In this document: positions 3,347 through 21,136 of the stretch, in pieces
Numbering within the stretch: the first letter of the stretch is position 1
Layout of the letters: every line of letters begins with the position of its first letter
DNA from: a virus
DNA length: 23,321 nt
Direction: 5' to 3' (one strand)
UHGV virus genome: UHGV-0081595
The notes under the pieces: generated by a model
Told to the model about the DNA's origin: nothing
The model's database searches: none
The model's input: the letters and a program-made list of their open reading frames with translations, nothing else
Program-made: the position numbers and the translations under genes

Positions 3347-3692
3347 TCTCTGCTCCTGTTGATACGGAAAGGGAAACAGGCACACCGTTATTACGCCGCC
3401 CAGTCAGTCCCACCACCATTGAACCGTCAAAATTGCTGTTAATGGTGATGGAATCCAGCGTCAGCCGTGGCTCCCAGCGACTCAGCGCCACATACACTGC
3501 CGACATGACCTGCAGGCGTAACGCCGGATTTTGTGGCTGGTCTATCAGTGCCGACAGCAGGGAACCATATTCACGGCGAGCAATGCGGCTACCCTGCGGC
3601 GTCAGCAGAATGTCCCGCACCGACTGGCGCAGATGGTCAATATCAGTAATGGCTTTGCCGCTGGTATTGTTCATCCCGCTATAAAGCGTCAT
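3333..3692 (-). CDS. W: baseplate protein gpW (GPW/gp25 family)
   Basis: 119-aa ORF with the P2 gpW-like small baseplate wedge sequence; position between V and J; overlapping stop/start with neighbours. Confidence 0.85.
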   Translation of the reverse strand: MTLYSGMNNTSGKAITDIDHLRQSVRDILLTPQGSRIARREYGSLLSALIDQPQNPALRLQVMSAVYVALSRWEPRLTLDSITINSNFDGSMVVGLTGRRNNGVPVSLSVSTGAENGSD

Positions 3693-6817: not shown

Positions 6818-7021
6818 TCAGTCCCATAGCTGGACGGTCTGCGCGGTGGTGGTGGTCGGAATGTCCGGCAGCTCCACCTGCAGCCCGTGAGGTAAAAAGG
6901 GGCCATATTCGGCAAGCCCCGGATTTGCCTTCAGTACCTGCTCCGTGACACCCTGCGTGCGCCCGTAATGACGCCAGCAAAGCGCGTCCACCGTGTCATA
7001 CTGATGCGCACGCACTTTCAT
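6818..7021 (-). CDS. X: tail protein X
   Basis: 67-aa ORF at the P2 gpX position between L and the holin; sequence consistent with the small LysM-like gpX family. Confidence 0.8.
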   Translation of the reverse strand: MKVRAHQYDTVDALCWRHYGRTQGVTEQVLKANPGLAEYGPFLPHGLQVELPDIPTTTTAQTVQLWD

Positions 7022-7485
7022 CAGATAAGCTCCACTGTGCAGTGCGGCGCATCCTGCACCCGGCTGATGGCCCAGCGGGCGTCACGCCACAAATCACCGC
7101 TGGATTCCGCCAGTTCCTCGCCTCGCTTCACACCGGATGCCGTGGCGTCATAGTCCTGGTATCGTTCGTTGAGCATGGCGCGTGCCCAGCAGTAAACCGC
7201 GTTGAAATAGTGCTGAATGCGCTCACTTTTGCCGTCCAGCTGTTCCGCCGGAACCTCAGCCAGCGACACATACCCCAGCATCTGCTGACGTCTGCGAAAC
7301 TCATACAGCTCTGCGTTGACCTCCGAAATTGCCGACAGCGCAACCTGCTTTAAACGCGGCTGCGTCACCGTGCCGTCAGTGCGCATGACACTGCGAAACT
7401 CCGACAGGTCCACATCAGGCCAGAACGGCGTATTTCTGATGATTTCCGCCTGTTCCGGTGCCTGTTCTGGCGCAACAAACTTCAT
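7021..7485 (-). CDS. L: head completion/stabilisation protein gpL
   Basis: gpL-like sequence; start placed at internal ATG (MKFVAPEQ) preceded by a GGAGA SD, not the track's upstream start at 7548. Confidence 0.8.
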   Translation of the reverse strand: MKFVAPEQAPEQAEIIRNTPFWPDVDLSEFRSVMRTDGTVTQPRLKQVALSAISEVNAELYEFRRRQQMLGYVSLAEVPAEQLDGKSERIQHYFNAVYCWARAMLNERYQDYDATASGVKRGEELAESSGDLWRDARWAISRVQDAPHCTVELI

Positions 7486-7580
7486 GCTGCTTTCTCCTGA
7501 AATAGAGGGCGGTGGACGGGGTTTTGATGTGGCAGTGCCTTTCGCCACCCCGTGCCGCCCGTGCGCGGGGGCACGTTCTG

Positions 7581-8231
7581 TCAGCGGCTGTCATTGCGCA
7601 GTCTGCGCTCCAGCTGCTGTTTGTCTTTTTTCACGCCACAGCGGGGATCAAGCTGTAACGCATGGTTGAGATGATTAAGGGCGGAAGCCGGATTGCTTTC
7701 ACTCAGGACAGCGCCAATCGCTTTATGCAGACGCGCCCGTGACTGGTCCGGCATATCCAGACCGTCTGTCAGCTCCAGCGTCTGCAACAACAGATCGGCA
7801 TCAAAGCCGGTGGCGGCAAGCATTGCGCTCTGCGCGGCGTCTGCCATTTCCTCTGCCAGCACGGTCTGCACGTTGCGGTTACCCAGCGGCATCACCCAGC
7901 CATGACGCAGGGCATGACGCCCGATCTCCAGCGCCCCGGCATAATCTCCGGCATCAATGCGCCACAGCATCACGTACATCAGCACGTCATCCTGTTGAGC
8001 GCCTCCGGCAGCCAGGACACCCTCTGCCCAGGCGGCGTACTTCGGCAGCAGCTTCACCTTGATTTCCGCTTTTTTGACCGTGGACTGAACGCCCTTGAGA
8101 CGGCGGCGGTCTTCCGCCAGTTGCAGCAGCATCAGGTCATAGCCCGATGCGTGGCGAACACTGCCGCCCTCGCGGGCGGCCTGTTCAGCCTGAACGCGCA
8201 GGCGATGCTGCCGTGCGGGACTCAGGCTCAT
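7581..8231 (-). CDS. M: terminase endonuclease (small) subunit gpM
   Basis: 216 aa; strong resemblance to P2 gpM (LPKYAAWAEGVLAAGGAQQDDVLMYVMLWRIDAGDYAGALEIGRHAL..., ...LDPRCGVKKD...). Confidence 0.85.
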   Translation of the reverse strand: MSLSPARQHRLRVQAEQAAREGGSVRHASGYDLMLLQLAEDRRRLKGVQSTVKKAEIKVKLLPKYAAWAEGVLAAGGAQQDDVLMYVMLWRIDAGDYAGALEIGRHALRHGWVMPLGNRNVQTVLAEEMADAAQSAMLAATGFDADLLLQTLELTDGLDMPDQSRARLHKAIGAVLSESNPASALNHLNHALQLDPRCGVKKDKQQLERRLRNDSR

Positions 8232-8234
8232 GGA

Positions 8235-9293
8235 TTACGCTCCGGTTTCGGCTGCGGCGGCGCTGAAATCACCAATCTGGATGTTTTCCACCAGTGCGGC
8301 GCAGCGGTAGTCCTCAACCACATAGGCTTCATTAACGGATTCAAAGTTTTCAATCCGGTCACGTTTCGGGTTGTCGATAACTGAACGGCGGCGGGTGTCT
8401 TCCTGCCAGTAGATGGACAGGTTATCCAGACGGGTGATCAGCAGCGCATTCGGTGGGAAGAACGGCGCACGCACGGCCTGCAGGCCACCCATGCGTTTCT
8501 GGCTGATGATCATATCGGCAGCCAGTTTTTCACTGTTTTCCTGCTCTTTGTTGACCAGCGGGAAATACTTGTCAGACAACAGTTCACGACCGCAAATCAC
8601 CACCAGATCGTCATCGTCCTGGTAAACCACGTCGATAAGCTCATTGACGGCATCCATCACCACAGCGTCCAGGTTGGCATATTCGCCACCTTTCCCGACT
8701 TTCACCGCACCCGGAGTGGTTTCACCGCCCGTGGTGGTGCTGCCCATGACGTGATCCGGTGCATCCTCACGGATTTTCTGCAGCCAGCCTTTGTTCACAT
8801 CCTGCAGCAGCGGGTTTTCGCTACGGTTGGAGGTTTTCGCACGCTTCACGCCGTTAAAGCCGATCATGATGCGGTCCAGTGCCTGACGTTTCACGATGGC
8901 GTCACGGATGCGCACCTGGAAATCCTGAAACTTCGCCCACAGATCCAGCTTCGCGTAGGTCAGCACCGTGTCAAAGTTGGTCTGCTCGCATTTATATTCC
9001 ACATCGACCATCAGGGTCGGATCGACGGGTTCACGCTCTTTCGCGGTGGTGTCAGTGGTTCCGGCAATGGTGCTGCCAACACCCAGCCCCAGCAGCTGAC
9101 CGGACTGCTCAGTCACTGGCGTGACGTTAATCAGCGTCAGGAAAGCGGCGGACTGCTGGATCTGGTCCTCCAGAGTCTGCTGCACAGACGGCTCCACAGT
9201 GAATTTGCTGGACAGTTCTTCAACTGCCACACCGTTCAGACGCGCCAGCTGCTGCAGGTAAGCGTTAAAAGCAAAGCGGGTATTCTTCTTCAT
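8235..9293 (-). CDS. N: major capsid protein gpN
   Basis: 352 aa; near-colinear match to remembered P2 gpN (MKKNTRFAFNAYL..., FTVEPSVQQTL, GFNGVKRAKTSNRSENPLLQDV, VGKGGEYANLDAVVMDA, VVEDY...GDFS). Confidence 0.95.
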   Translation of the reverse strand: MKKNTRFAFNAYLQQLARLNGVAVEELSSKFTVEPSVQQTLEDQIQQSAAFLTLINVTPVTEQSGQLLGLGVGSTIAGTTDTTAKEREPVDPTLMVDVEYKCEQTNFDTVLTYAKLDLWAKFQDFQVRIRDAIVKRQALDRIMIGFNGVKRAKTSNRSENPLLQDVNKGWLQKIREDAPDHVMGSTTTGGETTPGAVKVGKGGEYANLDAVVMDAVNELIDVVYQDDDDLVVICGRELLSDKYFPLVNKEQENSEKLAADMIISQKRMGGLQAVRAPFFPPNALLITRLDNLSIYWQEDTRRRSVIDNPKRDRIENFESVNEAYVVEDYRCAALVENIQIGDFSAAAAETGA

Positions 9294-9309
9294 CGGGTTT
9301 TGTGCTCCA

Positions 9310-10143
9310 TCAGCAATTGGTCAGAGTGTCAGCGGGGGCGTTACCGCCTGTTGCACGCTGGCGGTAGTCCTGGCGGCTGTCTTCATGACTCAGCTTATTC
9401 ACCAGTTCGTTAAAGGCGGTCTGCTGTGCCTGCAGGGCAGTCTCCAGCTCAGACAGACGTTCTTCCTGCTCAGACAGGGATTTTTCGGTGCGTGCGCTCA
9501 GGTTCTGCTGCTCAGTGGCGACCAGCTCCACGGCCTTATGCACATCAGAGAACCGGGCGTCATCGGACTGCTCTTTTTTGGTAAACAGCGCCGTGACGCG
9601 GGCAAACAGGGACGGTTTGTCGTCCTGGACTTCTTCCAGTTCGATCACCGTTTCCTCTGCGGCGGTAAAGAGATTGGCGGGATTCTGCTTGCGGTTTGCC
9701 AGCGGGTTATGGGCTGCACTGGCGCTGAATGTCAGCATTTCAGTGCCCAGACTGGCAGGGTCATCAGTGGCAGCCAGGCCGACCAGGTAGGCTTTGCCCG
9801 TATCAGCAAACTTCGGGCTGACTTCCATAGAGGTGAATAATTTCTGGCCTTTTTTCACCAGTTCCACCAGTGATTCCGTTGGCTCAACGTCGGCATACAG
9901 CGCCATCTTGCCTGCCAGCGGACCTTCCGTGATTTCTTCAGCAAACAGCGCCGTCACCTTGCCGTAGCGGTTAAAGGTGCTGTCCGGCAGATAAGACTTG
10001 ATGTGCTCAAGGTTAATCAGCGCGGTGTACATCGTCGGGTCGTAGCTGGCTGCCATCTGTTCCAGCCATTCACGCTGGATTTCGCGTCCGTCGGTGGTGG
10101 CACCTTCCACCCCGATGCGAAAACGCTTTGCTTTCACTGTCAT
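9310..10143 (-). CDS. O: capsid scaffolding protein gpO
   Basis: 277-aa acidic, coiled-coil-rich protein immediately upstream of N, divergent from P. Confidence 0.9.
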   Translation of the reverse strand: MTVKAKRFRIGVEGATTDGREIQREWLEQMAASYDPTMYTALINLEHIKSYLPDSTFNRYGKVTALFAEEITEGPLAGKMALYADVEPTESLVELVKKGQKLFTSMEVSPKFADTGKAYLVGLAATDDPASLGTEMLTFSASAAHNPLANRKQNPANLFTAAEETVIELEEVQDDKPSLFARVTALFTKKEQSDDARFSDVHKAVELVATEQQNLSARTEKSLSEQEERLSELETALQAQQTAFNELVNKLSHEDSRQDYRQRATGGNAPADTLTNC

Positions 10144-10285: not shown

Positions 10286-12052
10286 ATGAACACCACACAG
10301 ACACCCGCAGATCTCGATCCCCGTCGGCAGGCCATGCTGCTGTACTTTCAGGGATACCGCGTAGCCCGCATTGCTGAAATGCTGGGCGAGAAAGTTGCAA
10401 CCGTTCACAGCTGGAAAAAACGCGACAAGTGGGGTGACTATGGGCCGCTGGATCAGATGCAGCTCACCACCGCCGCACGCTACTGCCAGCTCATCATGAA
10501 GGAGCACAAAGAAGGGAAAGATTTCAAAGAGATTGACCTGCTGGCGCGCCAGTCTGAGCGCCACGCGCGGATCGGCAAGTTTAACAATGGTGGCAACGAA
10601 GCCGACTTAAACCCTAACGTCGCCAACCGCAACAAAGGCCCGCGCCGTCAGCCGGAAAAGAATGTTTTCACCGATGAACAGATTGAGAAGCTGGAAGAAA
10701 TCTTCCATTCCTCCATGTTCAACTACCAGCGCCACTGGTGGGAAGCCGGAAAAACCAACCGCATCCGCAACCTGCTGAAGTCACGCCAGATCGGCGCGAC
10801 CTTTTACTTTTCCCGTGAAGCCCTGATTGACGCCCTGCTTACCGGACGTAACCAGATTTTCCTTTCTGCCAGTAAGGCACAGGCTCACGTCTTTAAGCAG
10901 TACATCATCGACTTCGCCAAAGAAGTCGAAGTGGAGCTGAAAGGCGATCCGATGGTGCTTCCTAACGGGGCCACACTGTATTTCCTCGGCACCAATGCCC
11001 GCACGGCCCAGAGTTATCACGGCAACCTGTATCTGGATGAATATTTCTGGATACCAAAATTCCAGGAGCTGCGCAAAGTGGCTTCCGGTATGGCTATTCA
11101 CAAAAAATGGCGACAAACCTATTTTTCCACGCCATCCAGTCTGACACACAGTGCTTATCCGTTCTGGTCCGGTGCGCTGTTCAACCGTGGGCGCAACAAA
11201 GCCGATAAGGTGGACATCGACCTGTCCCACAGCAATCTGGCCCCCGGCCTGCTGTGCGCAGACGGGCAATACCGCCAGATAGTCACCGTGGAAGATGCGG
11301 TGCGCGGCGGCTGTAACCTGTTCGACCTCGACCAGCTACGCATGGAGTACAGCCCGGACGAATACCAGAACCTGCTGATGTGCGAGTTTGTGGACGATCT
11401 CGCGTCCGTGTTTCCGCTCAGCGAGCTGCAGGCGTGCATGGTGGACAGTTGGGAAGTCTGGACCGACTTTCATGCACTGGCGCTGCGCCCGTTTGGCTGG
11501 CGCGAAGTGTGGATCGGTTATGACCCGGCAAAAGGCACGCAAAACGGCGACAGCGCCGGATGCGTGGTGGTGGCACCGCCAGCCGTGCCGGGTGGTAAGT
11601 TCCGCATTCTTGAGCGTCACCAGTGGCGCGGGATGGACTTCCGCGCCCAGGCTGACGCCATCAAAAAACTGACCGAACAGTACAACGTGACCTATATCGG
11701 TATCGACTCAACCGGCGTTGGTCACGGGGTTTACGAGAACGTGAAAGCGTTTTTTCCTGCCGTCCGGGAGTTTGTCTACAACCCCAACGTTAAAAACGCC
11801 CTGGTACTCAAGGCCTACGACATTATCAGCCACCGCCGTCTGGAGTTTGACGCCGGACACACCGACATAGCGCAGTCCTTTATGGCAATACGTCGCGCCA
11901 CCACCGCCAGTGGCAACCGCCCGACCTATGAAGCCAGCCGCAGCGAAGAAACCAGCCACGCCGATCTGGCCTGGGCAACGATGCACGCACTGTTTAACGA
12001 ACCGCTGCAGGGCGAATCCGCCAATACCAGCAATATTGTGGAGATTTTTTGA
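10286..12052 (+). CDS. P: terminase ATPase (large) subunit gpP
   Basis: 588 aa; N-terminus MNTTQTPADLDPRRQAMLLYFQGYRVARIAEMLG...VHSWKKRDKW matches the P2 gpP pattern; stop overlaps the Q start (ATGA). Confidence 0.95.
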   Translation: MNTTQTPADLDPRRQAMLLYFQGYRVARIAEMLGEKVATVHSWKKRDKWGDYGPLDQMQLTTAARYCQLIMKEHKEGKDFKEIDLLARQSERHARIGKFNNGGNEADLNPNVANRNKGPRRQPEKNVFTDEQIEKLEEIFHSSMFNYQRHWWEAGKTNRIRNLLKSRQIGATFYFSREALIDALLTGRNQIFLSASKAQAHVFKQYIIDFAKEVEVELKGDPMVLPNGATLYFLGTNARTAQSYHGNLYLDEYFWIPKFQELRKVASGMAIHKKWRQTYFSTPSSLTHSAYPFWSGALFNRGRNKADKVDIDLSHSNLAPGLLCADGQYRQIVTVEDAVRGGCNLFDLDQLRMEYSPDEYQNLLMCEFVDDLASVFPLSELQACMVDSWEVWTDFHALALRPFGWREVWIGYDPAKGTQNGDSAGCVVVAPPAVPGGKFRILERHQWRGMDFRAQADAIKKLTEQYNVTYIGIDSTGVGHGVYENVKAFFPAVREFVYNPNVKNALVLKAYDIISHRRLEFDAGHTDIAQSFMAIRRATTASGNRPTYEASRSEETSHADLAWATMHALFNEPLQGESANTSNIVEIF

Positions 12053-13089
12053 TGGGAAAGAGTAAGAAGAACCGCACTGCGGCGACGAAACAGATCCAGC
12101 TTAAAAGTCAAACTACAGCCGAAGCATTCAGCTTCGGCGATCCCGTTCCTGTTCTGGACCGCCGAGAACTGCTGGATTATGTGGAATGCGTACAGATGGA
12201 CCGCTGGTATGAGCCGCCCGTCAGCTTTGACGGACTGGCGCGCACCTTCCGCGCTGCCGTGCATCATAGTTCCCCGATTGCAGTAAAGTGCAACATTCTG
12301 ACCAGCACCTACATCCCTCACCCGCTGCTCAGCCAGCAGGCTTTTTCGCGTTTTGTGCAGGACTATCTGGTATTTGGTAACGCCTACCTGGAGAAACGCA
12401 CGAACCGCTTCGGTGAAGTTATCGCCCTTGAACCTGCCCTGGCAAAATACACCCGACGCGGGTTAGACCTGGATACCTACTGGTTTGTGCAATACGGTAT
12501 GACCACGCAGCCATATCAGTTCACGAAAGGCAGCATCTTTCATCTGATGGAACCGGACATCAACCAGGAGATCTACGGCCTGCCCGGTTATCTTTCTGCC
12601 ATTCCGTCAGCCCTGCTCAACGAGTCCGCCACGCTGTTCCGCCGAAAGTATTACATTAACGGCAGTCATGCTGGCTTCATCATGTACATGACCGATGCTG
12701 CGCAGAACCAGGAGGATGTGAACAACCTCCGCAACGCAATGAAAAGCGCCAAAGGTCCAGGCAACTTCCGCAACCTGTTTATGTACTCACCTAACGGCAA
12801 AAAGGATGGTCTTCAGATTATCCCGTTGTCAGAAGTCGCGGCAAAGGATGAATTTCTGAACATCAAGAACGTGAGCCGGGATGACATGATGGCGGCACAT
12901 CGTGTGCCGCCACAAATGATGGGGATTATGCCGAATAATGTTGGGGGGTTTGGGGATGTGGAGAAGGCAAGTAATGTATTTGTAAGGAATGAATTATTGC
13001 CACTACAGAAGCTAATAATGGAGCTTAACTGCTGGCTCGGCCACGAGATTATACGTTTTATCCCTTACAAGCTTGAAAAGGCAACTTAA
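12049..13089 (+). CDS. Q: portal (capsid vertex) protein gpQ
   Basis: 346 aa; near-colinear with remembered P2 gpQ (DYVECV...RWYEPPVSF.GLA...RAAVHHSSPI, LEPDINQE.YGLP.YLSA, NESATLFRRKYY.NG.HAG, RNEL.PLQ). Confidence 0.95.
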   Translation: MMGKSKKNRTAATKQIQLKSQTTAEAFSFGDPVPVLDRRELLDYVECVQMDRWYEPPVSFDGLARTFRAAVHHSSPIAVKCNILTSTYIPHPLLSQQAFSRFVQDYLVFGNAYLEKRTNRFGEVIALEPALAKYTRRGLDLDTYWFVQYGMTTQPYQFTKGSIFHLMEPDINQEIYGLPGYLSAIPSALLNESATLFRRKYYINGSHAGFIMYMTDAAQNQEDVNNLRNAMKSAKGPGNFRNLFMYSPNGKKDGLQIIPLSEVAAKDEFLNIKNVSRDDMMAAHRVPPQMMGIMPNNVGGFGDVEKASNVFVRNELLPLQKLIMELNCWLGHEIIRFIPYKLEKAT

Positions 13090-13173
13090 TAAAAATTCAG
13101 ATATTATAAACAAATCAATTAATAACCATATAAATAGAAAAGTCAATTGAGCGTAGCTCAACATATCGCCAGC

Positions 13174-13193
13174 AAGGCGGGCATACCCGCCTT
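13174..13193. terminator. GC-rich hairpin between convergent Q and the cargo operon; putative intrinsic terminator
   Basis: AAGGCGGG-CATA-CCCGCCTT (8-bp stem, 4-nt loop) followed by TATTAA on the plus strand; lies between the Q stop (13089) and the stop of the 234-aa cargo gene (13196). Confidence 0.45.
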
Positions 13194-13195
13194 TA

Positions 13196-13900
13196 TTAAC
13201 GAAATTCATCATTAGATAATTGCTGAATGAGGAAGTCGGAGTAAAAATCCAGATGATTAGAATCTGAATTAATAAAAGCGCTTTTTGAAAGCTCAACAAA
13301 AGAAGGTTCCCCGTAAATCAAACAATGCAACCTAACTTTATCTATATTATATTTTTTGTTAGTAAAAATACTTTCTAGCTCTAACAATGCATTTTTTGTG
13401 GAAGTTATCTCAACCGAGGCCTTGGAGTTCCCATTTAACACAACATTGCTAACTTTAATTTTATCAATATGTAATAGACTTATTGAATGCTGTAAACTTA
13501 GATAATTTATATACTCCTTTAAATTTAAGGTGATTGAACCAAATCCAACCCTATAATTGAAATCTACACTAAGTCTATCCGTCAATTTCTTTATAGATTT
13601 AGGGGGATTAAAAATAGCCAATAAAGAGAGATTTTTAGATACGGGCTTTAATGCAAATTTTATGGTTTCATACTCTAAAAAATCTTGTTCTATCTCATCT
13701 CCCGCGGGCGATACAATAACTTCTGTACGCAATGACTTTTCAACATAAGAAGCGGAAACTTCATGTTCAGTAAAATTCACAAAAGTATAACCATAACCTT
13801 TACTTTCATCATAAGAATTACGTTTAAAATAATCAATTAGTTCAGAGAAGGTTATTGATAACTTCACTCTGCTCCACTTAATTTTATCCAGTGTTTTCAT
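13196..13900 (-). CDS. hypothetical protein, third gene of the AT-rich cargo operon
   Basis: 234-aa ORF, 8 bp downstream of the preceding gene; AT-rich, Asn/Lys/Ile-biased; no motif or family I can recognise. Confidence 0.7.
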   Translation of the reverse strand: MKTLDKIKWSRVKLSITFSELIDYFKRNSYDESKGYGYTFVNFTEHEVSASYVEKSLRTEVIVSPAGDEIEQDFLEYETIKFALKPVSKNLSLLAIFNPPKSIKKLTDRLSVDFNYRVGFGSITLNLKEYINYLSLQHSISLLHIDKIKVSNVVLNGNSKASVEITSTKNALLELESIFTNKKYNIDKVRLHCLIYGEPSFVELSKSAFINSDSNHLDFYSDFLIQQLSNDEFR

Positions 13901-13908
13901 TTGTTATC

Positions 13909-14985
13909 TCACTCATACTCTTTATTAATATCCATTATAATTGAACGCGCCGTTTTTTCAATAAGTCTTTTAAAATGATATTCTTCATCATCCGGTAATT
14001 GGCTCGGATTTTTATTATATTCTCCGGCACCTTTATATTTCCTCACCCCTCTAGAAATATATGAAAAGCTCTTAAACTCTAAAGGATCACTAAACTGAGC
14101 TTCAAAATCATAAAGATCTGGAGTAGTAGATTTATCCTTTATTCTCCATCTTATTTTCCAAATATAAAACCCTCTATTATACAAAGAATTCAACTCTTCA
14201 GATTTAAGCACCCCCTCTCCTTTCAAAGATGCTTTGCTAATATGTATTCCTGTTTCAGAATCCCCATCTTCCTCCTCCATGACAGCAGGTTTAGGATGGT
14301 AGATATAAACATCCGTAACATCATCTAAAACATATCCATCCAACCCATTGATGAGCCGCTTAAAAAATTCTGTTCTTTTATCTGCGTCATCGATGTTCGC
14401 GAGGTTGATTTCTTCTGTATCTAAAGTCGTTGCTTCTATATCTTTTTCCTTTTGTATAACCTGTTCGATAATACTTAGTAGTTTTTTATTATAAATCTCA
14501 GCTTGTTCACTATCAGGCCTACGAATTGAAAAACCATCCGAAAGGGACTCGATTTCAAAAACAGCAGTTTTCTTCTCTACTTGGTTAAATTCACTTTTAC
14601 CAAAATTGGTTGATAAGTATGTAATGCTAATTTTAATAAAATCTTTATCACTGATTACATGACATATATCATCTTCGCTTTCCAGCTGATCTTTAAGCTT
14701 ATTAGCAGCCTTAACAAGTAGTGGCTTATCAATATTATTCTTAATAACTATAGCCGTAGATTTCTCTCGCCTTAAAAAACCTCCAAATATTCCAGAAATT
14801 TTCTGGTGCAAATAATAATCATGAGTGAGCTTTGAGAAATTTTTTGCTAGTTGCTTACGCTCAGTTTTTTTTGACACCAAAATTCCACGGGATAAAAACA
14901 ATTCCACCATATCATTATCAGTGACACGTGATTGGCATAAAGCCTCGTATAAAGCTTTGTCTGTAACACTGTGTATTTCACTCAT
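13909..14985 (-). CDS. hypothetical protein, second gene of the AT-rich cargo operon
   Basis: 358-aa ORF whose ATG overlaps the stop of the upstream gene (TAATG); acidic, Lys/Glu-rich; no recognisable catalytic motif, Walker box or TM segment. Confidence 0.7.
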   Translation of the reverse strand: MSEIHSVTDKALYEALCQSRVTDNDMVELFLSRGILVSKKTERKQLAKNFSKLTHDYYLHQKISGIFGGFLRREKSTAIVIKNNIDKPLLVKAANKLKDQLESEDDICHVISDKDFIKISITYLSTNFGKSEFNQVEKKTAVFEIESLSDGFSIRRPDSEQAEIYNKKLLSIIEQVIQKEKDIEATTLDTEEINLANIDDADKRTEFFKRLINGLDGYVLDDVTDVYIYHPKPAVMEEEDGDSETGIHISKASLKGEGVLKSEELNSLYNRGFYIWKIRWRIKDKSTTPDLYDFEAQFSDPLEFKSFSYISRGVRKYKGAGEYNKNPSQLPDDEEYHFKRLIEKTARSIIMDINKEYE

Positions 14986-16049
14986 TATTTAACATCCCAT
15001 GATCTTTCTTCTGTTAAATATTGCTCTCGAGATAGAGGCACAATATATAGCTCAATAGATAATAATTTTTCCTTCATAGATTCATCATATCCCCACTGAT
15101 ATGAAAATTTTTCTATAGCTTTTATAAAATTAGTCCGTATGTGCTCACTTTTATCAATACATGCTACTCTAATTCTAATATTATTTTTTGAGTTTAATAT
15201 CTGGTAGTTAGCTAGAGTATCTAATAAATAATTAAACTCTAAGTCTGTTTTACCGGAGCGGTTGTAATAAACAATAAACCCTTCAGGATAAACCAGCTCG
15301 TCCTCCTTTTTAGCTCTATTATATTCTATTACTGGACCATGTTTAATTATCATGTAGGGGGATGTTAGAGTTTCCACTGTAGCTGGAAGATATTCTTCTG
15401 CAGTCACAACCTTATGAAGTATTAATTGAGGATAATAGAACCCATAATCATCACGCGGGAATTTATTTTCCGCAATCATTTCGTTCATATCAGCAACAAC
15501 AGACATAAGATAACTAATAGTTCGTGGCTCAATTATATGTATTTGCTGATTTTCAGATACATTTACTCTGTCTAAATTAACTGCCGCAGGTCTTTTCCCT
15601 TTTTTGGGTTTAGGAGGATAAAAATAGTCATAGAAATTATGCTTATAGTCATTATCATGATTATATACAAAAAGTAACCCTCGTACTTCACTTTTAGACA
15701 TGGTTGTCTCATAGCGACTTTTCCATACCTGACTATTCTGCGCACAATGAATAGTTTTTGCTAAGGAATCTAAAGCATTTTCAACCATTTTAGAATTTAA
15801 AGACCCTTTTGAATAACTTTTCAAATCAGTATTTAGATAAACAATTTTATTTAAGTAAGGATCTTTATAATGAAAGACAATATCAACTGGATGTGTGTGG
15901 TCTTGCGTTTTTTCCGCTGGCTTGTGTAATTCTTGTTCAGTACACGGAAAATCATGATCGGTCGGACCGTGTTGCTTCCACTTAAATCTTTCCAATAGTT
16001 TATGGGACACCAGCTTCGCCAAGTCTTCACGAGGTCCGTTTTCTGCCAT
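14985..16049 (-). CDS. hypothetical protein, first gene of the AT-rich cargo operon; weak PD-(D/E)xK-like motif near the N-terminus
   Basis: 354-aa ORF with AGGAG SD ~9 nt upstream of the ATG; residues ~50-80 read HPVD-IVFHYKDPYLNKIVYLNT-DLK, compatible with a PD...(D/E)xK nuclease core; otherwise unassignable. Confidence 0.7.
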   Translation of the reverse strand: MAENGPREDLAKLVSHKLLERFKWKQHGPTDHDFPCTEQELHKPAEKTQDHTHPVDIVFHYKDPYLNKIVYLNTDLKSYSKGSLNSKMVENALDSLAKTIHCAQNSQVWKSRYETTMSKSEVRGLLFVYNHDNDYKHNFYDYFYPPKPKKGKRPAAVNLDRVNVSENQQIHIIEPRTISYLMSVVADMNEMIAENKFPRDDYGFYYPQLILHKVVTAEEYLPATVETLTSPYMIIKHGPVIEYNRAKKEDELVYPEGFIVYYNRSGKTDLEFNYLLDTLANYQILNSKNNIRIRVACIDKSEHIRTNFIKAIEKFSYQWGYDESMKEKLLSIELYIVPLSREQYLTEERSWDVK

Positions 16050-16128
16050 GATAAGATTCTCCTTTAGTTAACTAAGAATAATACTATTGAAAAATTCACA
16101 GATTCTCTAGCTTTTTAGTTAGCGCGCG

Positions 16129-16147
16129 CTCGTATCCCCGCCACGCC
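16129..16147 (-). other. putative cos site (cohesive-end sequence of the P2/186 type)
   Basis: Minus strand reads GGCGTGGCGGGGATACGAG followed by CGCGCGCT; as I recall, the P2 and 186 cohesive ends begin GGCGAGGCGGGGAAAGCAC / GGCGTGGCGGGGAAAGCAT and P2 continues TGCGCGCT. Not verified against a database. Confidence 0.55.
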
Positions 16148-16158
16148 TGCCCGCTTTA

Positions 16159-16263
16159 TGCAGTGGTTTTCATGCACCTGCATGACATGAGTAAAAGCCC
16201 GCCAGTTCTAGCAGGTCTCTGCAAAAACGATCCTCAATCGATCATGCGATTTCATGCAGCATA
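16159..16263. repeat. cluster of TCATGC(A) repeats adjacent to cos (possible terminase-binding or packaging-accessory repeats)
   Basis: TCATGCAC, TGCATGAC, TCATGCGA, TCATGCAG, TCATGCAC within ~105 bp next to the cos-like sequence, in a non-coding stretch. Confidence 0.4.
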
Positions 16264-16456
16264 GTCATGCACAGCCAAGGGAAGCGTAAATCCGTATCTG
16301 AATGACCGCTGAAAAGCGAATCATACGGGTTTACAAAGATGAAAGTCCGCTGTGAACGAGAAACGGACTATGATACTAACAAGAGAGCATCACTGTTAAT
16401 ATTTGAACAATTAATGCTCAGCTATTTATCTATTTTACAATCAGAAAGGACTTGTA

Positions 16457-16867
16457 ATGGTTACGGTTGATGAATTAAAGATGAAATATCCGGACGCGAA
16501 TGCCTGGCAAGTGGGCGACAGCCCTGAACTGGCTAACGAGCTTGCAGCACTTATCAAAAAAGGGATTAAAACGGCCTCCTGCGGCTCTTATGCCTCTTAC
16601 CAGAAGGAAGAGTTTGCCCCAAGGATTGGGAGCTATAACATCATCCTTAACGGCCAGGATGTACCTGTATGCGTGACCCGGCTGGTGTCGATGCGACTGG
16701 TGCGTTTTTGTGATGTTACTGCCGAGTTCGCTCGCAAGGAAGGTGAAGGCGATTTGAGTCTTGAATATTGGCAGAGAGAGCATCAACGATTTTTTACATG
16801 TGAAGGTTACTTTTCTGACGATATGGAGCTGATTATGGAAGAGTTTGAAGTTGTTGATGTTTTGTAA
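16457..16867 (+). CDS. ASCH-domain protein
   Basis: 136 aa; pattern WQVGDSPELANELAALIKKGIKTASCGSY...YNIILNGQDVPVCVTRLVSMRLVRFCDVTAEFARKEGEGDLSLEYWQREHQRFF matches the ASCH family signature (GxKTAT... / EGEGD-SL-YW); AAAGGA SD 6 nt upstream; only plus-strand gene between cos and A. Confidence 0.8.
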   Translation: MVTVDELKMKYPDANAWQVGDSPELANELAALIKKGIKTASCGSYASYQKEEFAPRIGSYNIILNGQDVPVCVTRLVSMRLVRFCDVTAEFARKEGEGDLSLEYWQREHQRFFTCEGYFSDDMELIMEEFEVVDVL

Positions 16868-17019
16868 TCCAACAACGTTTATGCATGTCAGATTAGAATA
16901 ACTGAGTACCGTTTTATCACGTGAAATTTGTATTAATGCCCGCCTCTGGCACAAAGCGAACGAGCACTTATCAAAATGCTCACCCACCTTACGCCTCGTT
17001 TCACTCGTTGCCCAAACTA

Positions 17020-17049
17020 GCCCCCATCAGAATGAATCCTCCTGGGGGC
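17020..17049 (-). terminator. hairpin downstream of the DinI-like gene; possible terminator
   Basis: GCCCCCA / TGGGGGC 7-bp GC stem with a large (~16-nt) loop, immediately after the DinI-like stop; weak U-tract, so low confidence. Confidence 0.3.
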
Positions 17050-17057
17050 AACGTTTC

Positions 17058-17291
17058 TTAATGCAGCCAGCTGTCGTCTTCCCACACCTTCTGCATAATT
17101 TTCATCACTTGTTTTCTTTCTTCATCCAGTTGCAGTCCGGTCAGTTCCACACCGTTAGAGCTACCTTTGCGGATACGAATTACCGTTTTGGGATACAGGG
17201 GGCGCAGATTGCGGTAAAGCTCGGATTCAAGGGCGTCCAAGATAGACTGGCTAATCTTCTGCTCTTTATCGATCATTATTTCAATGCGCAT
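17058..17291 (-). CDS. dinI: DinI-family protein (SOS-induced RecA modulator-like)
   Basis: MRIEIMIDKEQKISQSILDALESELYRNLRPLYPKTVIRIRKGSSNGVELTGLQLDEERKQVMKIMQKVWEDDSWL resembles E. coli DinI along its length; start at the ATG preceded by GAGGTGA; the track ORF extends 24 codons further upstream in frame. Confidence 0.8.
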   Translation of the reverse strand: MRIEIMIDKEQKISQSILDALESELYRNLRPLYPKTVIRIRKGSSNGVELTGLQLDEERKQVMKIMQKVWEDDSWLH

Positions 17292-17301
17292 AAAAGTCAC
17301 C

Positions 17302-17490
17302 TCAACTGATGACATCCATTGAGCGGTTGTATTCGTGGGTTCTGATTTTTGCCATGAGTTCATCTGTCAGTTCAGAAACCCACTGCAAAGCCAGCCCCTT
17401 CTCTTCATCACTACACTCACTAGCCGCTACAAGCTTAAGAAAAAAATCAATGCGCTGGAGCTTCAAAGACTCCAAAAAATAGTCCTGCAT
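17302..17490 (-). CDS. small hypothetical protein (62 aa) co-transcribed with the DinI-like gene; possible Tum-like SOS antirepressor component
   Basis: Internal ATG at 17490 preceded by a perfect AGGAGG SD; the longer track ORF (to 17592) would run through the LexA box and promoter; stop 11 nt before the DinI-like start. Confidence 0.55.
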   Translation of the reverse strand: MQDYFLESLKLQRIDFFLKLVAASECSDEEKGLALQWVSELTDELMAKIRTHEYNRSMDVIS

Positions 17491-17531
17491 TTTTCCTCCT
17501 ATGACACCACAAGCAATACTGTATACATAAC

Positions 17532-17551
17532 CACTGTTTATATTTACAGTA
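17532..17551. promoter_or_regulatory. LexA (SOS) box overlapping the promoter of the small-ORF/DinI-like operon
   Basis: CACTGTTTATATTTACAGTA: CTGT-N8-ACAG with an AT-rich spacer, close to the consensus TACTGTATATATATACAGTA; a perfect half-site TACTGTAT sits just upstream (17517-17524); TTTACA and TATA-type hexamers overlap on the minus strand. Confidence 0.65.
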
Positions 17552-17643
17552 TATAATAATCTTACTGATGTAAAACGTTTTTTTACGTTCATCAGCCTGA
17601 TATGCCTGGTATTATTAAGAGCACGAATTGTTAATCCGCGTAA

Positions 17644-20058
17644 TTAATACAGGTTCCGCCACTTATCATCTTCCCGCAAACGCTGGTTCCGATAGAAGAT
17701 ACGCAAGCCTGCTCCTGACGGAATACTGCCGCCGCGAAGGAGTAAATCGACCTCTTTCTCGCTACCATCAAATCCTCTGGACTTCAGTTCATAGACGAGC
17801 TGCTGACGCTGATACTCTGTAATTCGCTGTTTGTAGTCTTTACGTCGTTTCGGTTTAACCAGGCGTAATCTTGCTGCCAGTTCCCGGCGCTCTTTTTTGC
17901 TCATACTGTGCAGGTAATCGTGCAACTCCTTGTCATCCATGCGGGTGATATCCGTTCTGGTATCCCCATCAGCTGATTTGTCTTTCCCTTGTTGGTACAA
18001 ATTTTCAACAAGGGGACAGTTATTGCCACGAGTCCAAGGGGCGCAAGCGCCCTGGTCGGCTGCCGCCTCCTGAACGTCAACGGCTTTACGAACCATTTTC
18101 CACTTCACTGCATGAGTGCAGATCTTGCCCTCTGCAATGGGTGACCAGATGCCATAAATACGAATGCCGTGATCGCCATAGGCGGTCGGCTCTTCGTTGA
18201 TTTCATAAGCGGTTCTGATGAGGTGATATTTACGGGGAACCAGTACGCCGCCCTGCTTCATGATGTAGGTGGCAAAACAACCAGCATCAGCAGCAGCCAA
18301 GATGGCATCAAGGCGCGGGTTATCCAGTACCGGCGCACCTGCTTTTTTGTCCCCCTGTTGCCTTGCCGCCTGACCAGCCAGCAATCGCAGTTCACGGTAA
18401 GCCTGACGCCCCGGAATGCCAAAGAAGCGGAATTGCTGAACACGATGCAAAGACGCCCAGGCGTTCACGTATTCAGCGTTATCACGCAGAGATTTACCCG
18501 TTTCCTTGCTGATCTCGCCAGCCAGACCACGCCCGTCAATGTTCTTACTGATGTATTTCGCTATGTAGCTTGTCGGCGTTCCTTTGCGCGGGTTAATCAG
18601 CTCAGACTTAAAGCGCGGCCCCGTGTTATTGCCCAGCTCCTCGCGGTCTTCACGGATAGCAAACTTACGCAACAATGCAGTAATGGCGCGGCGGTCTTTT
18701 TTGCGCATGAAACACAACAGGTGCCAGTGAACTGTGCCGTCGTGATGCGGCTCAGCCACCCGCACGCCATACCAGCGCAACCCGGCTTTGTGCATCGCCT
18801 TACGAAATGCAGCAAACATACCGACCAGATAATCGCTGCTTTGTCTTACCGTCGCATTTGTCCAGGTCGGGTTGGGCCTGCCGTTATTTAGCGTGGAATG
18901 GAAACGTGACGGACAGGTGATGGTGTAGAAAACGGCGCAGTCACCGCGCATTTCCGCGATAAGCTCCAGACCTTTAACACAGGCCATCATCTCATTGCGG
19001 CGATGCGCAGGGTTGCTGCTGCTGGCGTTTACCACATCCTCCATGTCCAGCGTGTCGCCGTCTTCGTTCACCAGTTCATGAGAACGGAAAAACTCCAGCG
19101 ACTTACGGCGCTGCTCACGTTTATGCAACACGGCTTCATAGCTGACATAGGGAGATGCTTTTTTGCTGACAAGGCAGACAGCACGCAACTGCTCTTCCCG
19201 CCATTCGCAACGCATTTTCCATAATTTCCGGTACCACCAGTCGGCGCACAACATACGCGCCAGCGAACCCGGAATGAGTTCATAGGGCACGGGTTTACGG
19301 CGGTTTCTTTTCCGACGGAGTTGCTCAAACGCAGGCGGGATTACATCCAGACGCAGGGTTTCCGCTGCCACCCTTTCCCATGTATTGCGGATTTCTTCTG
19401 GCTTAACGTCATCGGTGGCATACAAATCGCCACAAGCGGCATCAAGGCACATACTCATATGCGCAGCTACCAGGGTGGACAGGCGTTTCACCTGATCCTG
19501 ACTCATTTCAGGCAGGATCAGCAGGCCGTCCAGCCCTTCATGGCTTGCCATAAAGCGAAAAGATGCAGATAGCTGACTGTCGCGTACATGCTCCAGTCGT
19601 TCCAGACATGGCTTAATCGTCTCACGTAAATAGCGGGAATAAGCCTTTGGCCTGCCAAGGCTGCTGAAGTATTCAATACGTTGCATCAGCGGCTTGCTGA
19701 TATGGGAAGGCTGGGCGTTGACGTCCGCCAGAATGACCATATCCGGATTAAAACGCTGCTGCTCATGCGCCAGCTTTGCCCGACTAATGAGCTTATCCTG
19801 TTCCATTTCGCGCTGGACAGGATCACGGGATTCATTAAAGAAATAACGCTCCCAGACCTGATCACTCAGCGCCTCACGGCGCAGCTGTTCCTGCTCGTTA
19901 TCGGCAGCGTACAGAGTGATCAGGTTTGAAAGCGTAGAAACCGGCGCAACTTCCACCGGGTCCAGATAAGGGTTAATGGCCTTTTTCGGGCTGTTCCATG
20001 AGAACGATGCGGCAGCTTCGTTAAAGCCGCAGCAGTTGTTCATATCGGCATGACTCAT
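17644..20058 (-). CDS. A: replication initiation endonuclease gpA (rolling-circle, HUH-type)
   Basis: 804 aa; [19 protein letters not shown] (HUH motif) and [12 protein letters not shown] (active-site Tyr motif) match P2 gpA; start overlaps the Dam stop (ATGA). Confidence 0.92.
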
Positions 20059-20912
20059 GCACGTACTCCGTACACGGCAGAACTATCCACGCCACGCGAA
20101 TAATCAAATCCCACCCAGCAGCGCGGCCCGGAAACAGCAATGATTTCTGTTGCTGATTTACCCTCGCCAGCTGCCACACCGATGCTGCGTTTTGCCTTGA
20201 TGTAGTGGTGAGTAAAATTGCGATACAGCGAACGGATCAGGGATGTGTCACTGTTAGAAACAATGACCGGATGTCCTTCTGATGACCGATGTTCAAGAAC
20301 AGATGCCAGGTGATACTGGTCATCTTCAGTGAAGCCGTCAGTGTGATAGCCGGAAAACGTACCGTCATACGGCGGATCGCAATACACCACATCCCCCACC
20401 TTCAACATCGCCAGCGTTTCATCAAAGCTGGCGCAGATAAACGTTGCCCGCTGGGCTTTCTCTGCAAATGCGCGAATTTCTTTTTCAGGGAAATACGGAT
20501 TTTTATAATTACCGTAGGGAATGTTGAAATGTCCGCTCTTGTTATAGCGACATAAACCACGGTAACCGTGACGATTGAGATACAGGAAATATACCGCTTT
20601 CATGAAATCAGTAATTTCAGTGGAGTAATTAAACTCCTGCCTTATGTTGTAATAAGCTACCTCCCTGTTTGCTTCCTCAAATAAAGCTCTGGCACGAGAT
20701 ATAAACGCCTCACAATCAGCAGCAACCTTTTTATAGAGGTTGATTAAATCAGGATTAATATCCGCAACAAGATAGCTGGGGTAATCCGTCTCCATCATCA
20801 CTGCACAGGAACCCGCGAAAGGTTCAACCAGTCGCGGGCCAGCAGGAAGATGCTTTTTCAGTTCGGACATTATGGCGGTTTTATTTCCTGCCCATTTCAG
20901 GATGGTGCTCAT
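20055..20912 (-). CDS. dam: Dam-family DNA N6-adenine methyltransferase (GATC-type orphan MTase)
   Basis: [29 protein letters not shown] and VVYCDPPY motifs align with E. coli Dam; start at the internal ATG ([11 protein letters not shown]) preceded by a GGAGGTG SD rather than the track start at 20972. Confidence 0.88.
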
Positions 20913-21136
20913 ACAGCACCTCCGTTGTAATGTTTGCCTTTCAGCTCTGCGATTTCCTGGCAGGTAATGCAAAGCTGCACTCCCGGAATGGCGCGGCGTC
21001 GTGCTGGCGGAATTGGCGCTTCACATTCAATACAAAGCACGCGAGACACGCCCGGTGTTTTGGCACGGGCAGCACGAATATGGCGCTGGCGTTCTTCTTC
21101 AACGCGCTGCTGTACGAGATCCATTGCATCAGCCAT
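20909..21136 (-). CDS. TraR/DksA-family C4 zinc-finger protein
   Basis: 75 aa with CIEC-x17-CITC four-cysteine finger and basic flanks; typical small early-region protein of P2-like phages. Confidence 0.75.
   Translation of the reverse strand: MADAMDLVQQRVEEERQRHIRAARAKTPGVSRVLCIECEAPIPPARRRAIPGVQLCITCQEIAELKGKHYNGGAV

What the first reader, a model, noticed from the sequence alone, without database searches (positions are those of the whole stretch)
16113..16280. cos-like sequence with flanking TCATGC repeats; cargo sits on the Q side of cos where P2 has almost nothing
Seen in sequence: the minus strand at 16147-16129 reads GGCGTGGCGGGGATACGAG followed by CGCGCGCT, close to my recollection of the P2/186 cohesive ends (GGCGAGGCGGGGAAAGCAC-TGCGCGCT / GGCGTGGCGGGGAAAGCAT). 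On the A-proximal side, five TCATGC-type motifs occur within ~105 bp. If this is cos, the three-gene operon is inserted between cos and the portal gene, an interval that in P2 is, as I recall, only ~0.15 kb, while the ASCH gene occupies the classical tin/old side. Both flanks of cos would then carry cargo. In the packaged linear genome the operon would be at the extreme left end, among the first DNA to enter the cell, though it is transcribed away from cos.
Basis: partly seen in the sequence, partly recalled or inferred. Interest (0 to 1): 0.5.

Follow-up and report, generated by a model that had tools for sequence, protein, structure and literature searches.

The report
P2-family cos site between cargo bays
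This is the ordinary DNA-packaging (cos) site of a P2/186/Fels-2-type prophage, and carrying accessory defence genes on both sides of it, including the portal-gene side, is common in this phage group and already described.

Summary
The minus strand at 16147-16129 reads GGCGTGGCGGGGATACGAG, followed by CGCGCGCT. That is 15/19 identical to the 186 cohesive end, 14/19 to P2, and 19/19 to the cos annotated in Salmonella phage SEN8. Five TCATGC motifs lie in 16170-16270.

The site sits in a sharply bounded conserved block of about 152 bp (window 16122-16272). The block lies downstream of the portal gene in about 60 species-level relatives, and its architecture is shared with P2, 186 and satellite P4.

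The three-gene operon (13196-16049) does lie between cos and the portal gene. It is a diverged homologue of the validated "hp+hp+hp" (3HP) anti-phage system. The ASCH gene is on the old/tin side.

None of this is unusual:
- 51 of 60 relatives carry more than 300 bp between portal and cos (median 1.7 kb).
- The cos-to-Q interval was proposed as an insertion hotspot in 1996 and 1999.
- The whole gpA-gpQ region is the published P2 defence hotspot.

That terminase binds the repeats is plausible but untested. The claim that this DNA enters the cell first could not be checked. Verdict: real, correctly read, already known, low interest.

The parts
16129..16147 (-). 19-nt cohesive-end sequence GGCGTGGCGGGGATACGAG. 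It is the predicted 5' overhang. The left end of the packaged genome would start at 16147 and run towards Q.
   Evidence: Read directly. 15/19 identical to 186 cos, 14/19 to P2 cosL, 19/19 to the SEN8 annotated cos. The SEN8 record ends exactly at the base equivalent to 16148.
16121..16128 (-). Left flank CGCGCGCT. This is the last conserved bases on the Q side. Homology among relatives stops after position +26 (window 16122).
   Evidence: Column conservation is 0.97 at +21..+25 and falls to 0.53 and then about 0.35 beyond. The flank is also present in P2 (TGCGCGCT), 186 and P4.
16148..16272 (-). Right arm of cos (125 bp, old/tin side). In P2-map orientation it holds three direct GCATG(A) repeats, two GATC sites, an inverted repeat or hairpin followed by a T-run, the palindrome TCATGCA-nn-TGCATGA followed by AAAACC, and AAGCGGGCA next to the nick.
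   Evidence: Alignment of 40 species-level loci. Conservation is 0.75-1.0 across -125..-1 and 0.4-0.5 beyond -126. P2, 186 and P4 share the same layout.
16242..16270 (-). Distal cluster of three direct repeats. They read TCATGC on the + strand (16242, 16252, 16265) and GCATGA on the minus strand, spaced 10 and 13 bp apart.
   Evidence: The columns are at least 90% conserved in 40 loci. Equivalent TGCAT(G/T) triplets occur in P2, 186 and P4.
16170..16185 (.). Proximal palindrome TCATGCA cc TGCATGA, 23-38 bp from the nick.
   Evidence: the repeat finder I12. 98% of cells are paired with no compensatory changes, so it is conserved as sequence rather than as structure.
16198..16215 (-). Stem-loop CCTGCTAG-AAC-TGGCGGG followed by CTTTT, between the distal and proximal repeats. 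It looks like a terminator for transcription approaching cos from the gpA side.
   Evidence: Terminator-like hit. 5 of 8 pairs show changes on both sides, for example GCCCACCAATATTGGTGGGC in L036. Support is modest.
13196..16049 (-). Q-side cargo, a three-gene operon: Hp1 14985-16049, Hp2 13909-14985, Hp3 13196-13900. It is transcribed away from cos towards the end of Q and has 32.8% GC.
   Evidence: PADLOC Hp1/Hp2/Hp3 at E = 2.7e-62, 1e-39 and 3e-14. 37/29/25% identical, over most of each protein's length and in the same order, to pFR109 'hp + hp + hp' of Rousset 2022 Table S2A. GC content.
12049..13089 (+). Portal gene (P2 Q / 186 W homologue), the conserved boundary of the Q-side bay.
   Evidence: Pfam Phage_portal. 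Homologues found in 80 genomes.
16457..16867 (+). A-side (old/tin-side) cargo: an ASCH-domain gene, also transcribed away from cos.
   Evidence: Pfam ASCH, E = 1.4e-22. The same gene occupies the same position in E. coli MB06022.
17058..20058 (-). DinI-like gene (17058-17363), a small ORF (17302-17592) and replication gene A (17644-20058). Together they form the conserved boundary of the A-side bay.
   Evidence: Pfam DinI and Phage_GPA.
7581..8231 (-). Small terminase subunit gpM, the presumed reader of the cos repeats.
   Evidence: Pfam Phage_term_smal, E = 2.6e-40.
10286..12052 (+). Large terminase subunit gpP, the presumed nuclease that makes the staggered nicks.
   Evidence: Pfam Terminase_6N, Terminase_6C and Terminase_5.

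Best explanation
Window 16122-16272 is the functional-type cos (cohesive end) site of a P2/186/Fels-2-like (Peduoviridae) prophage.

By analogy with P2, the phage's own terminase (gpM small subunit, gpP large subunit) would recognise the asymmetric site. Nearly all the recognition sequence, 125 bp, lies on the right-end (gpA/old-tin) side. That arm contains three phased GCATG repeats, an inverted repeat, and a TCATGCA-nn-TGCATGA palindrome. Only 8 bp beyond the overhang are conserved on the Q side. gpP would nick the two strands 19 nt apart, giving the 5' overhang GGCGTGGCGGGGATACGAG.

Because the required sequence ends so abruptly on both sides, cos acts as a fixed anchor between two insertion-tolerant bays, portal-to-cos and cos-to-DinI/gpA. 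The two bays are filled independently with low-GC accessory cassettes. Here the cassettes are a diverged 3HP anti-phage operon on the Q side and an ASCH gene on the A side. Both are transcribed away from cos.

What is shown: sequence homology, the conservation boundaries, the mosaicism, and the identity of the cargo. What is inferred: cleavage positions, terminase binding to the repeats, and expression of the cargo.
For: Core identity. The 19-mer is identical to the annotated SEN8 cos, and the SEN8 linear record breaks at exactly the same junction. It is 15/19 identical to 186 and 14/19 to P2. A 55-bp stretch taken here around the nick (the proximal TGCAT repeat through the left-flank GCGCGC) is 42-44/55 identical to P2, P4 and 186.

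Context. The site lies between Q and A, with gpM, gpP, N, O and L present in the window.

Conservation. The block is found downstream of the portal gene in about 60 species-level genomes. Its edges are sharp at -125 and +26.

Shared architecture. The layout is shared with satellite P4, whose only homology to P2 is cos (Rousset 2022).

Mosaicism. E. coli FREC5 (L005) matches the window on the Q side and in proximal cos. E. coli MB06022 (L007) matches the cos block and the A side.

Flank diversity. About 120 IMG/VR contigs with an exact 25-nt core carry 87 Q-flank classes and 54 A-flank classes.

Cargo. PADLOC hits and BLASTP to pFR109 identify the operon. Its GC content is 32.8% against 51-56% for phage core genes.
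Against: - There is no experimental end-mapping for this exact 19-mer. The SEN8 cos was assigned during annotation and is labelled 'putative' in the record.
- Nothing here shows that this prophage is inducible or packaging-competent.
- No binding data for gpM were found, so the role of the repeats is inferred only from conservation.
- The internal hairpin has only modest covariation support.
Confidence: 0.9

Rival explanations
1. The GCATG/TCATGC repeats and the palindrome are transcriptional control elements, that is, operators or promoter elements for the divergent cargo or early genes, rather than terminase recognition sites. On this view cos function needs only the core around the nicks.
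For: cos lies in a 407-bp divergent intergenic region between the 3HP operon and ASCH. The palindrome has the form of a dimeric regulator site. A promoter-like site is predicted nearby at 16399-16370.
Against: The repeats are conserved at fixed distances from the nick whatever cargo lies on either side. They are also kept in satellite P4, which shares only cos with P2. Conservation stops precisely at the outermost repeat. No promoter-like hexamer pair was detected within 16148-16272.
Confidence: 0.07
2. The site is a relic cos in a defective prophage. It is conserved by descent but no longer cut or used.
For: The window covers only 23 kb, and no evidence of induction or of virions is available here.
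Against: The core is identical to that of SEN8, a phage isolated from a Salmonella strain and sequenced. All five packaging and head genes next to the site are full-length with strong Pfam matches. The block shows no decay relative to 40 relatives.
Confidence: 0.05
3. Placing the operon on the Q side is adaptive because that end is injected first, giving the defence system a head start on entry.
For: In 48 of 51 relatives with Q-side cargo, the largest ORF starts near cos and reads away from it. If the right-arm repeats act like lambda cosB, which lies on the first-packaged end, the Q end would be packaged last and injected first. That step is inference from lambda.
Against: The homologous validated system in E. 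coli E1114 sits on the opposite (A) side of cos, so position is not tied to function. The polarity of P2 packaging and ejection could not be retrieved from the held literature. Defence genes of a temperate phage mainly act from the prophage, where the position of the ends is irrelevant. Even for lambda, last-in-first-out ejection has been questioned (PMC10287942).
Confidence: 0.1

Closest known systems
cos of Salmonella phage SEN8 and other Fels-2-type phages (Felsduovirus; related blocks in Fels-2, RE-2010, SopEPhi)
   Same: The 19-mer GGCGTGGCGGGGATACGAG is identical, and so are the left flank CGCGCGC and the right flank ...AAAGCGGGCA. The distal GCATG repeats, the hairpin and the proximal palindrome are the same. 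SEN8 also has two genes between cos and the portal gene, and DinI plus gpA on the other side.
   Different: The cargo differs: SEN8 has a hypothetical gene plus an HNH endonuclease on the Q side and a DNA-binding protein on the A side. The SEN8 cos was itself assigned during annotation rather than by end mapping.
cos of coliphages P2, 186 and satellite P4 (Ziermann & Calendar 1990, the reference for the '55-bp core', as cited in PMC5694545 and PMC9122126)
   Same: All have a 19-nt overhang starting GGCG(A/T)GGCGGGGA, the (T/C)GCGCGC left flank and the TGCAT(T/G)AAAACC...AAGCGGGC(A/G) right flank. All carry three distal TGCAT(G/T) repeats about 95-125 bp from the nick. All lie between the portal gene and the non-essential region next to gpA.
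   Different: The last six overhang bases differ (ATACGAG against AAAGCAC or AAAGCAT). P2 and 186 have only 186-195 bp, including a terminator, between cos and the portal gene, against 3058 bp here. P2 lacks the obvious internal hairpin.
Cargo insertion between cos and the portal gene: retrons Ec67/Ec86 in 186-related prophages (Dodd & Egan 1996), ctx in phiCTX (Nakayama 1999), ORF1-4 of phiRSY1 (PMC5694545)
   Same: Foreign genes replace the short interval between cosL and the gpQ homologue. [quoted passage not shown] In E. coli E7-1N7 the retron-Ec67-family gene lies exactly in this bay, at 1720-3660 between the portal stop at 1678 and cos at 3737.
   Different: The cargo here is a 3HP-type defence operon. 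The 1996 and 1999 papers themselves could not be read; only their titles and citing text were available.
P2 defence hotspot between gpA and gpQ (Rousset et al. 2022; NAR 2026 gkag898), including the validated 'hp + hp + hp' (3HP) system
   Same: The same locus is described as 'cos-proximal'. The paper reports 18,150 E. coli loci and 1,650 gene arrangements. The window operon is homologous to the validated three-gene system that protects against P1.
   Different: Those surveys delimit the hotspot by gpA and gpQ and do not separate the two sides of cos. In the validated E1114 example the system is on the A side, whereas here it is on the Q side. The proteins are only 25-37% identical.

Membership tests
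P2-family (Peduoviridae) cos site | 19-nt cohesive-end core of the type GGCG(A/T)GGCGGGGA... | tested here: met
   Minus strand 16147-16129. 15/19 identical to 186, 14/19 to P2, 19/19 to SEN8.
P2-family (Peduoviridae) cos site | Conserved core flanks shared by P2 and P4, corresponding to the '55-bp core': TGCAT-AAAACC...AAGCGGGC on one side and GCGCGC on the other | tested here: met
   A 55-bp stretch taken here around the nick is 42/55 identical to P2, 43/55 to P4 and 44/55 to 186. For comparison, P2 against 186 is 48/55.
P2-family (Peduoviridae) cos site | Position between the portal gene (Q) and the non-essential region next to replication gene A, with cognate gpM/gpP terminase genes in the genome | tested here: met
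   Pfam assignments of Q, P, M, O, N, L and A. The order is the same as in P2 and 186.
P2-family (Peduoviridae) cos site | Cleavage by terminase to give 19-nt 5' protruding ends in virion DNA | not testable with these tools
   This needs virion DNA. The only indirect support is that the SEN8 record is opened at this junction.
P2-family (Peduoviridae) cos site | Sufficiency of the site for packaging or transduction (cosmid assay) | not testable with these tools
   The comparative 'deletion analysis' gives sharp conservation limits at -125 and +26, but that is inference only.
3HP (hp+hp+hp) anti-phage system of Rousset et al. 2022 | Three co-oriented genes homologous to Hp1, Hp2 and Hp3, in that order | tested here: met
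   PADLOC PDLC03004/5/6 at E = 2.7e-62, 1e-39 and 3e-14. BLASTP to the pFR109 proteins gives 37%, 29% and 25% identity at E = 4e-64, 5e-42 and 6e-17.
3HP (hp+hp+hp) anti-phage system of Rousset et al. 2022 | Protection against phage infection (P1 in the original test) | not testable with these tools
   Activity was shown only for the E1114 version. This version is 25-37% identical to it.
P2 cos-proximal defence hotspot (gpA-gpQ) | Variable, low-GC accessory genes between conserved gpQ and gpA that differ between otherwise related prophages | tested here: met

The most novel reading that the evidence does not exclude
The published gpA-gpQ hotspot of P2-like phages may really be two separate, independently assorting cargo bays split by a strongly asymmetric cos, with 125 bp required on the gpA side and only 8 bp beyond the overhang on the Q side. 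In Fels-2-type lineages the portal-side bay appears to be the more used and more diverse of the two. Its cargo is almost always transcribed away from cos. The two bays seem to share one packaging budget, since their sizes are negatively correlated. If the Q end is also the first-ejected end, Q-side defence genes could be expressed before circularisation.
Probability: 0.3. Interest if true: 0.35.

Novelty: already known. Interest (0 to 1): 0.15.

Why it matters
Little new biology follows. The result places cos exactly in this prophage, which is useful for annotation, for predicting the ends of the packaged genome, and for splitting the published gpA-gpQ defence hotspot into its two halves. The comparative data give a cheap in-silico estimate of the minimal cos, -125 to +26. 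That estimate could guide P2/P4 cosmid and transducing-particle design. The data also show that the portal-side bay deserves separate treatment in surveys of phage-borne defence systems.

Tried and rejected
- Rfam scan of 13000-17100 at E <= 1 gave no RNA family, so the cos hairpins are not a known RNA.
- The sigma-70 scan found no promoter-like site inside the cos block. Overall counts were not above the shuffled expectation, so no promoter claim is made for the 3HP operon.
- I looked for physical-end evidence in IMG/VR by scanning for the exact core. In the 80 rows listed, none of the matches lies at the very end of a locus, so the scan gave no information about physical ends. The loci were used instead for flank diversity.
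- I tried to establish P2 packaging and ejection polarity and the experimentally defined minimal cos from the literature. Dodd & Egan 1996, Odegrip 2006 and Christie & Calendar 2016 are not held, and Ziermann & Calendar 1990 and Chattoraj & Inman 1974 appeared only as citations. Citing papers did not state the polarity.
- Searching Rousset's supplements by RefSeq protein accessions and by the N-terminus of Hp1 found nothing. The system was found by reading Table S2A.
- The idea that this is a satellite (P4-like) cos was rejected, because the window carries the full P2-type head and terminase module.

Full report
**1. The observation**

The sequence is as described. On the minus strand, 16147-16129 reads GGCGTGGCGGGGATACGAG and is followed by CGCGCGCT at 16128-16121.

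- P2 (AF063097) starts GGCGAGGCGGGGAAAGCAC TGCGCGCT. Positions 1-19 are annotated cosL.
- Phage 186 (U32222) starts GGCGTGGCGGGGAAAGCAT TGCGCGCC, annotated cos.

The window 19-mer matches 186 at 15/19 and P2 at 14/19.

The TCATGC motif occurs 21 times in the 23.3-kb window, which is no more than shuffles give. Five of those copies, however, fall within 16170-16270. The expected count for a 128-bp interval is 0.115, so the Poisson P is about 1.5e-7. The repeat finder recovers the repeat family and a perfect palindrome, TCATGCA-cc-TGCATGA, at 16170-16185.

One small correction: the P2 Q stop codon is at 187, so the cos-to-Q interval in P2 is 186 bp, and it is 195 bp in 186.

**2. What it is**

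The window is part of a P2/186-like prophage.

| Gene | Coordinates (strand) | Basis |
|---|---|---|
| L, M (small terminase), N, O | 7021-10143 (-) | Pfam |
| P (large terminase) | 10286-12052 (+) | Pfam |
| Q (portal) | 12049-13089 (+) | Pfam |
| Three-gene operon | 13196-16049 (-) | ORFs, PADLOC |
| Candidate cos | 16122-16272 | this report |
| ASCH gene | 16457-16867 (+) | Pfam |
| DinI-like gene | 17058-17363 (-) | Pfam |
| Replication gene A | 17644-20058 (-) | Pfam |

The window is 99% identical over the shared parts to prophages in E. coli chromosomes.

blastn against phage records finds only a block of about 150 bp (window about 16121-16272). It is 86-91% identical in 91-93 P2-like phages of Escherichia, Salmonella, Klebsiella and Yersinia, including Fels-2, SopEPhi and RE2010, with E-values down to 3e-54.

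The record of Salmonella phage SEN8 (Felsduovirus) begins with the identical 19-mer plus CGCGCGC, annotated 'putative cos site'. It ends with ...TGCATGAAAACCACTACAGAAAGCGGGCA. The record is therefore opened at exactly the junction equivalent to window 16148|16147. The genome announcement gives cos as ggcgtggcggggatacgag, identified during annotation.

**3. Anatomy from comparison**

I fetched 80 loci encoding portal homologues, one genome per species. The cos block lies downstream of the portal gene in about 60 of them.

Displays anchored on the nick, and a 40-sequence alignment, show the following fixed layout in P2-map orientation.
- Three direct GCATG(A) repeats at about -125 to -95.
- Two GATC sites.
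- An inverted repeat, GCCCGCCAG-n-CTGGCGGGC, followed by TTTT.
- The palindrome TCATGCA-nn-TGCATGA followed by AAAACC, at about -38 to -17.
- AAGCGGGCA, then the nick.
- The 19-nt overhang sequence.
- CGCGCGC.

Conservation has sharp edges. It runs at 0.75-1.0 across -125..+25. It drops to 0.4-0.5 beyond -126, to 0.53 in +26..+30, and to about 0.35-0.48 further out.

P2, 186 and satellite P4 share this plan. Each has three distal TGCAT(G/T) repeats and a proximal TGCATTAAAACC. A 55-bp stretch taken here around the nick is 42-44/55 identical to them. According to Rousset et al., cos is the only region homologous between P4 and P2. Retention of the repeats in P4 therefore argues that they belong to the packaging signal.

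The palindrome is conserved as sequence, with no compensatory changes. The internal stem shows some compensatory changes, in 5 of 8 pairs. That fits a structural element such as a terminator shielding cos from transcription coming from the gpA side. I regard this last point as tentative.

**4. The cargo on the Q side**

The operon has 32.8% GC, against 51-56% for the phage core genes. Its proteins hit the PADLOC models Hp1, Hp2 and Hp3. They are 37%, 29% and 25% identical, over most of each protein's length and in the same order, to the three proteins of pFR109 'hp + hp + hp'. That is the three-gene system from the P2 hotspot that Rousset et al. showed to protect against P1.

In the E1114 source of that system, the cloned fragment starts about 250 bp on the Q side, crosses cos, and continues on the gpA side. 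The validated system therefore sits in the other bay. The same system family can occupy either flank.

**5. How unusual Q-side cargo is**

It is not unusual.

In 60 species-level loci, the distance from the portal stop to cos ranges from 167 to 3518 bp, with a median of 1686 bp.
- Only 9 loci have the P2-like minimum of less than 300 bp.
- 44 loci have at least 1 kb.
- In 48 of the 51 loci with more than 300 bp, the largest ORF reads from cos towards the portal gene, as here.
- Both bays are filled in 26 of 54 loci, the Q bay only in 20, and the A bay only in 7.

In E. coli the retron-Ec67-family gene and a HIRAN cassette sit in this same bay.

Among about 120 IMG/VR contigs with an exact 25-nt core, there are 87 Q-flank classes against 54 A-flank classes, and 112 distinct combinations.

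The window itself is a mosaic.
- E. coli FREC5 (L005) is identical on the Q side and in proximal cos, but diverges in the distal part of the block and beyond.
- E. coli MB06022 (L007) is unrelated on the Q side, but near-identical (one mismatch) from CGCGCGC through the cos block into the A side.

**6. Literature**

[quoted passage not shown] It also cites Nakayama 1999, for ctx lying between cos and the gpQ equivalent in phiCTX.
- Rousset et al. 2022 define the whole gpA-gpQ 'cos-proximal' region as a defence hotspot, with 18,150 E. coli loci and 1,650 arrangements. They speculate that cohesive ends promote exchange.
- A 2026 NAR study confirms the hotspot across 8,165 P2-like prophages.

Neither survey separates the two sides of cos. 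That separation is the only modest addition made here.

**7. Mechanism**

Most likely, gpM recognises the right-arm repeats and gpP nicks 19 nt apart. The ends re-anneal after injection. The abrupt limits of the required sequence create two insertion-tolerant bays, which are exchanged by recombination using cos and the flanking core genes as homology.

Homology, the conservation boundaries, the mosaicism and the cargo identity are shown. Binding, cleavage and cargo expression are inferred.

I could not obtain that from the held papers. The E1114 counter-example, and the fact that prophage defence acts from the integrated state, make an adaptive reading weak.

**8. Verdict**

The feature is the ordinary cos of a known phage group, and the cargo arrangement has been described in the literature. 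Novelty: already known. Interest: low.

Noticed in passing
54 related loci among L008-L073 (table); window 13089-17647: The sizes of the two cargo bays (portal stop to cos, and cos to gpA) are negatively correlated across 54 species-level loci, with Spearman rho = -0.48 and p = 2e-4. This is consistent with a shared packaging-capacity budget. The test is not corrected for phylogeny.
   Followed up: partly
window 13060-13089, and the same position in L005-L063: The last seven or so codons of the portal gene differ with the adjacent cargo. For example, the window ends ...PYKLEKAT*, while loci without Q-side cargo end ...KRND*. The portal-side boundary of the cargo bay therefore lies inside the 3' end of Q, and the portal C-terminal tail tolerates replacement.
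   Followed up: partly
window 16228-16243: Two GATC (Dam) sites, CGATC-n6-CGATC, lie inside the cos right arm and are at least 90% conserved in 40 relatives. The prophage encodes its own D12-class adenine methyltransferase at 20055-20972. A link between methylation state and packaging was not examined.
   Followed up: no
window 16286-16334: A 12-nt inverted repeat, GTAAATCCGTAT...ATACGGGTTTAC (92% complementary, 25-nt spacer containing a smaller CGCT-TTTC-AGCG hairpin), lies just outside the cos block on the A side. It is shared with E. coli loci L006 and L007. No Rfam match was found. Its function is unknown.
   Followed up: partly
window 13146-13197: Two hairpins lie between the convergent portal gene and Hp3. 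GTTGAGC-TAC-GCTCAAT plus a T-rich tail on the minus strand (13162-13146) was found by the scan. GGCGGG-CATA-CCCGCC followed by TTTATT on the plus strand (13176-13197) was read from the sequence. They are probable terminators for the 3HP operon and the P-Q operon respectively.
   Followed up: no
L033 10993-14001 (Erwiniaceae bacterium CAU 1747); L027, L040, L048, L058, L061: L033 has ORFs of 358, 354 and 233 aa in the Q-side bay, the same sizes as the window operon. Five other genera share a different three-ORF set of about 279, 268 and 223 aa in that bay. Neither set was checked by protein comparison or characterised.
   Followed up: no
window 12900-17700 against E. coli complete genomes: No complete E. 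coli genome in the collection carries this exact combination. Five genomes have the 3HP bay with a different A side, and others have ASCH with a different Q side. The window thus appears to be a recombinant pairing of two cassettes that each occur elsewhere.
   Followed up: partly
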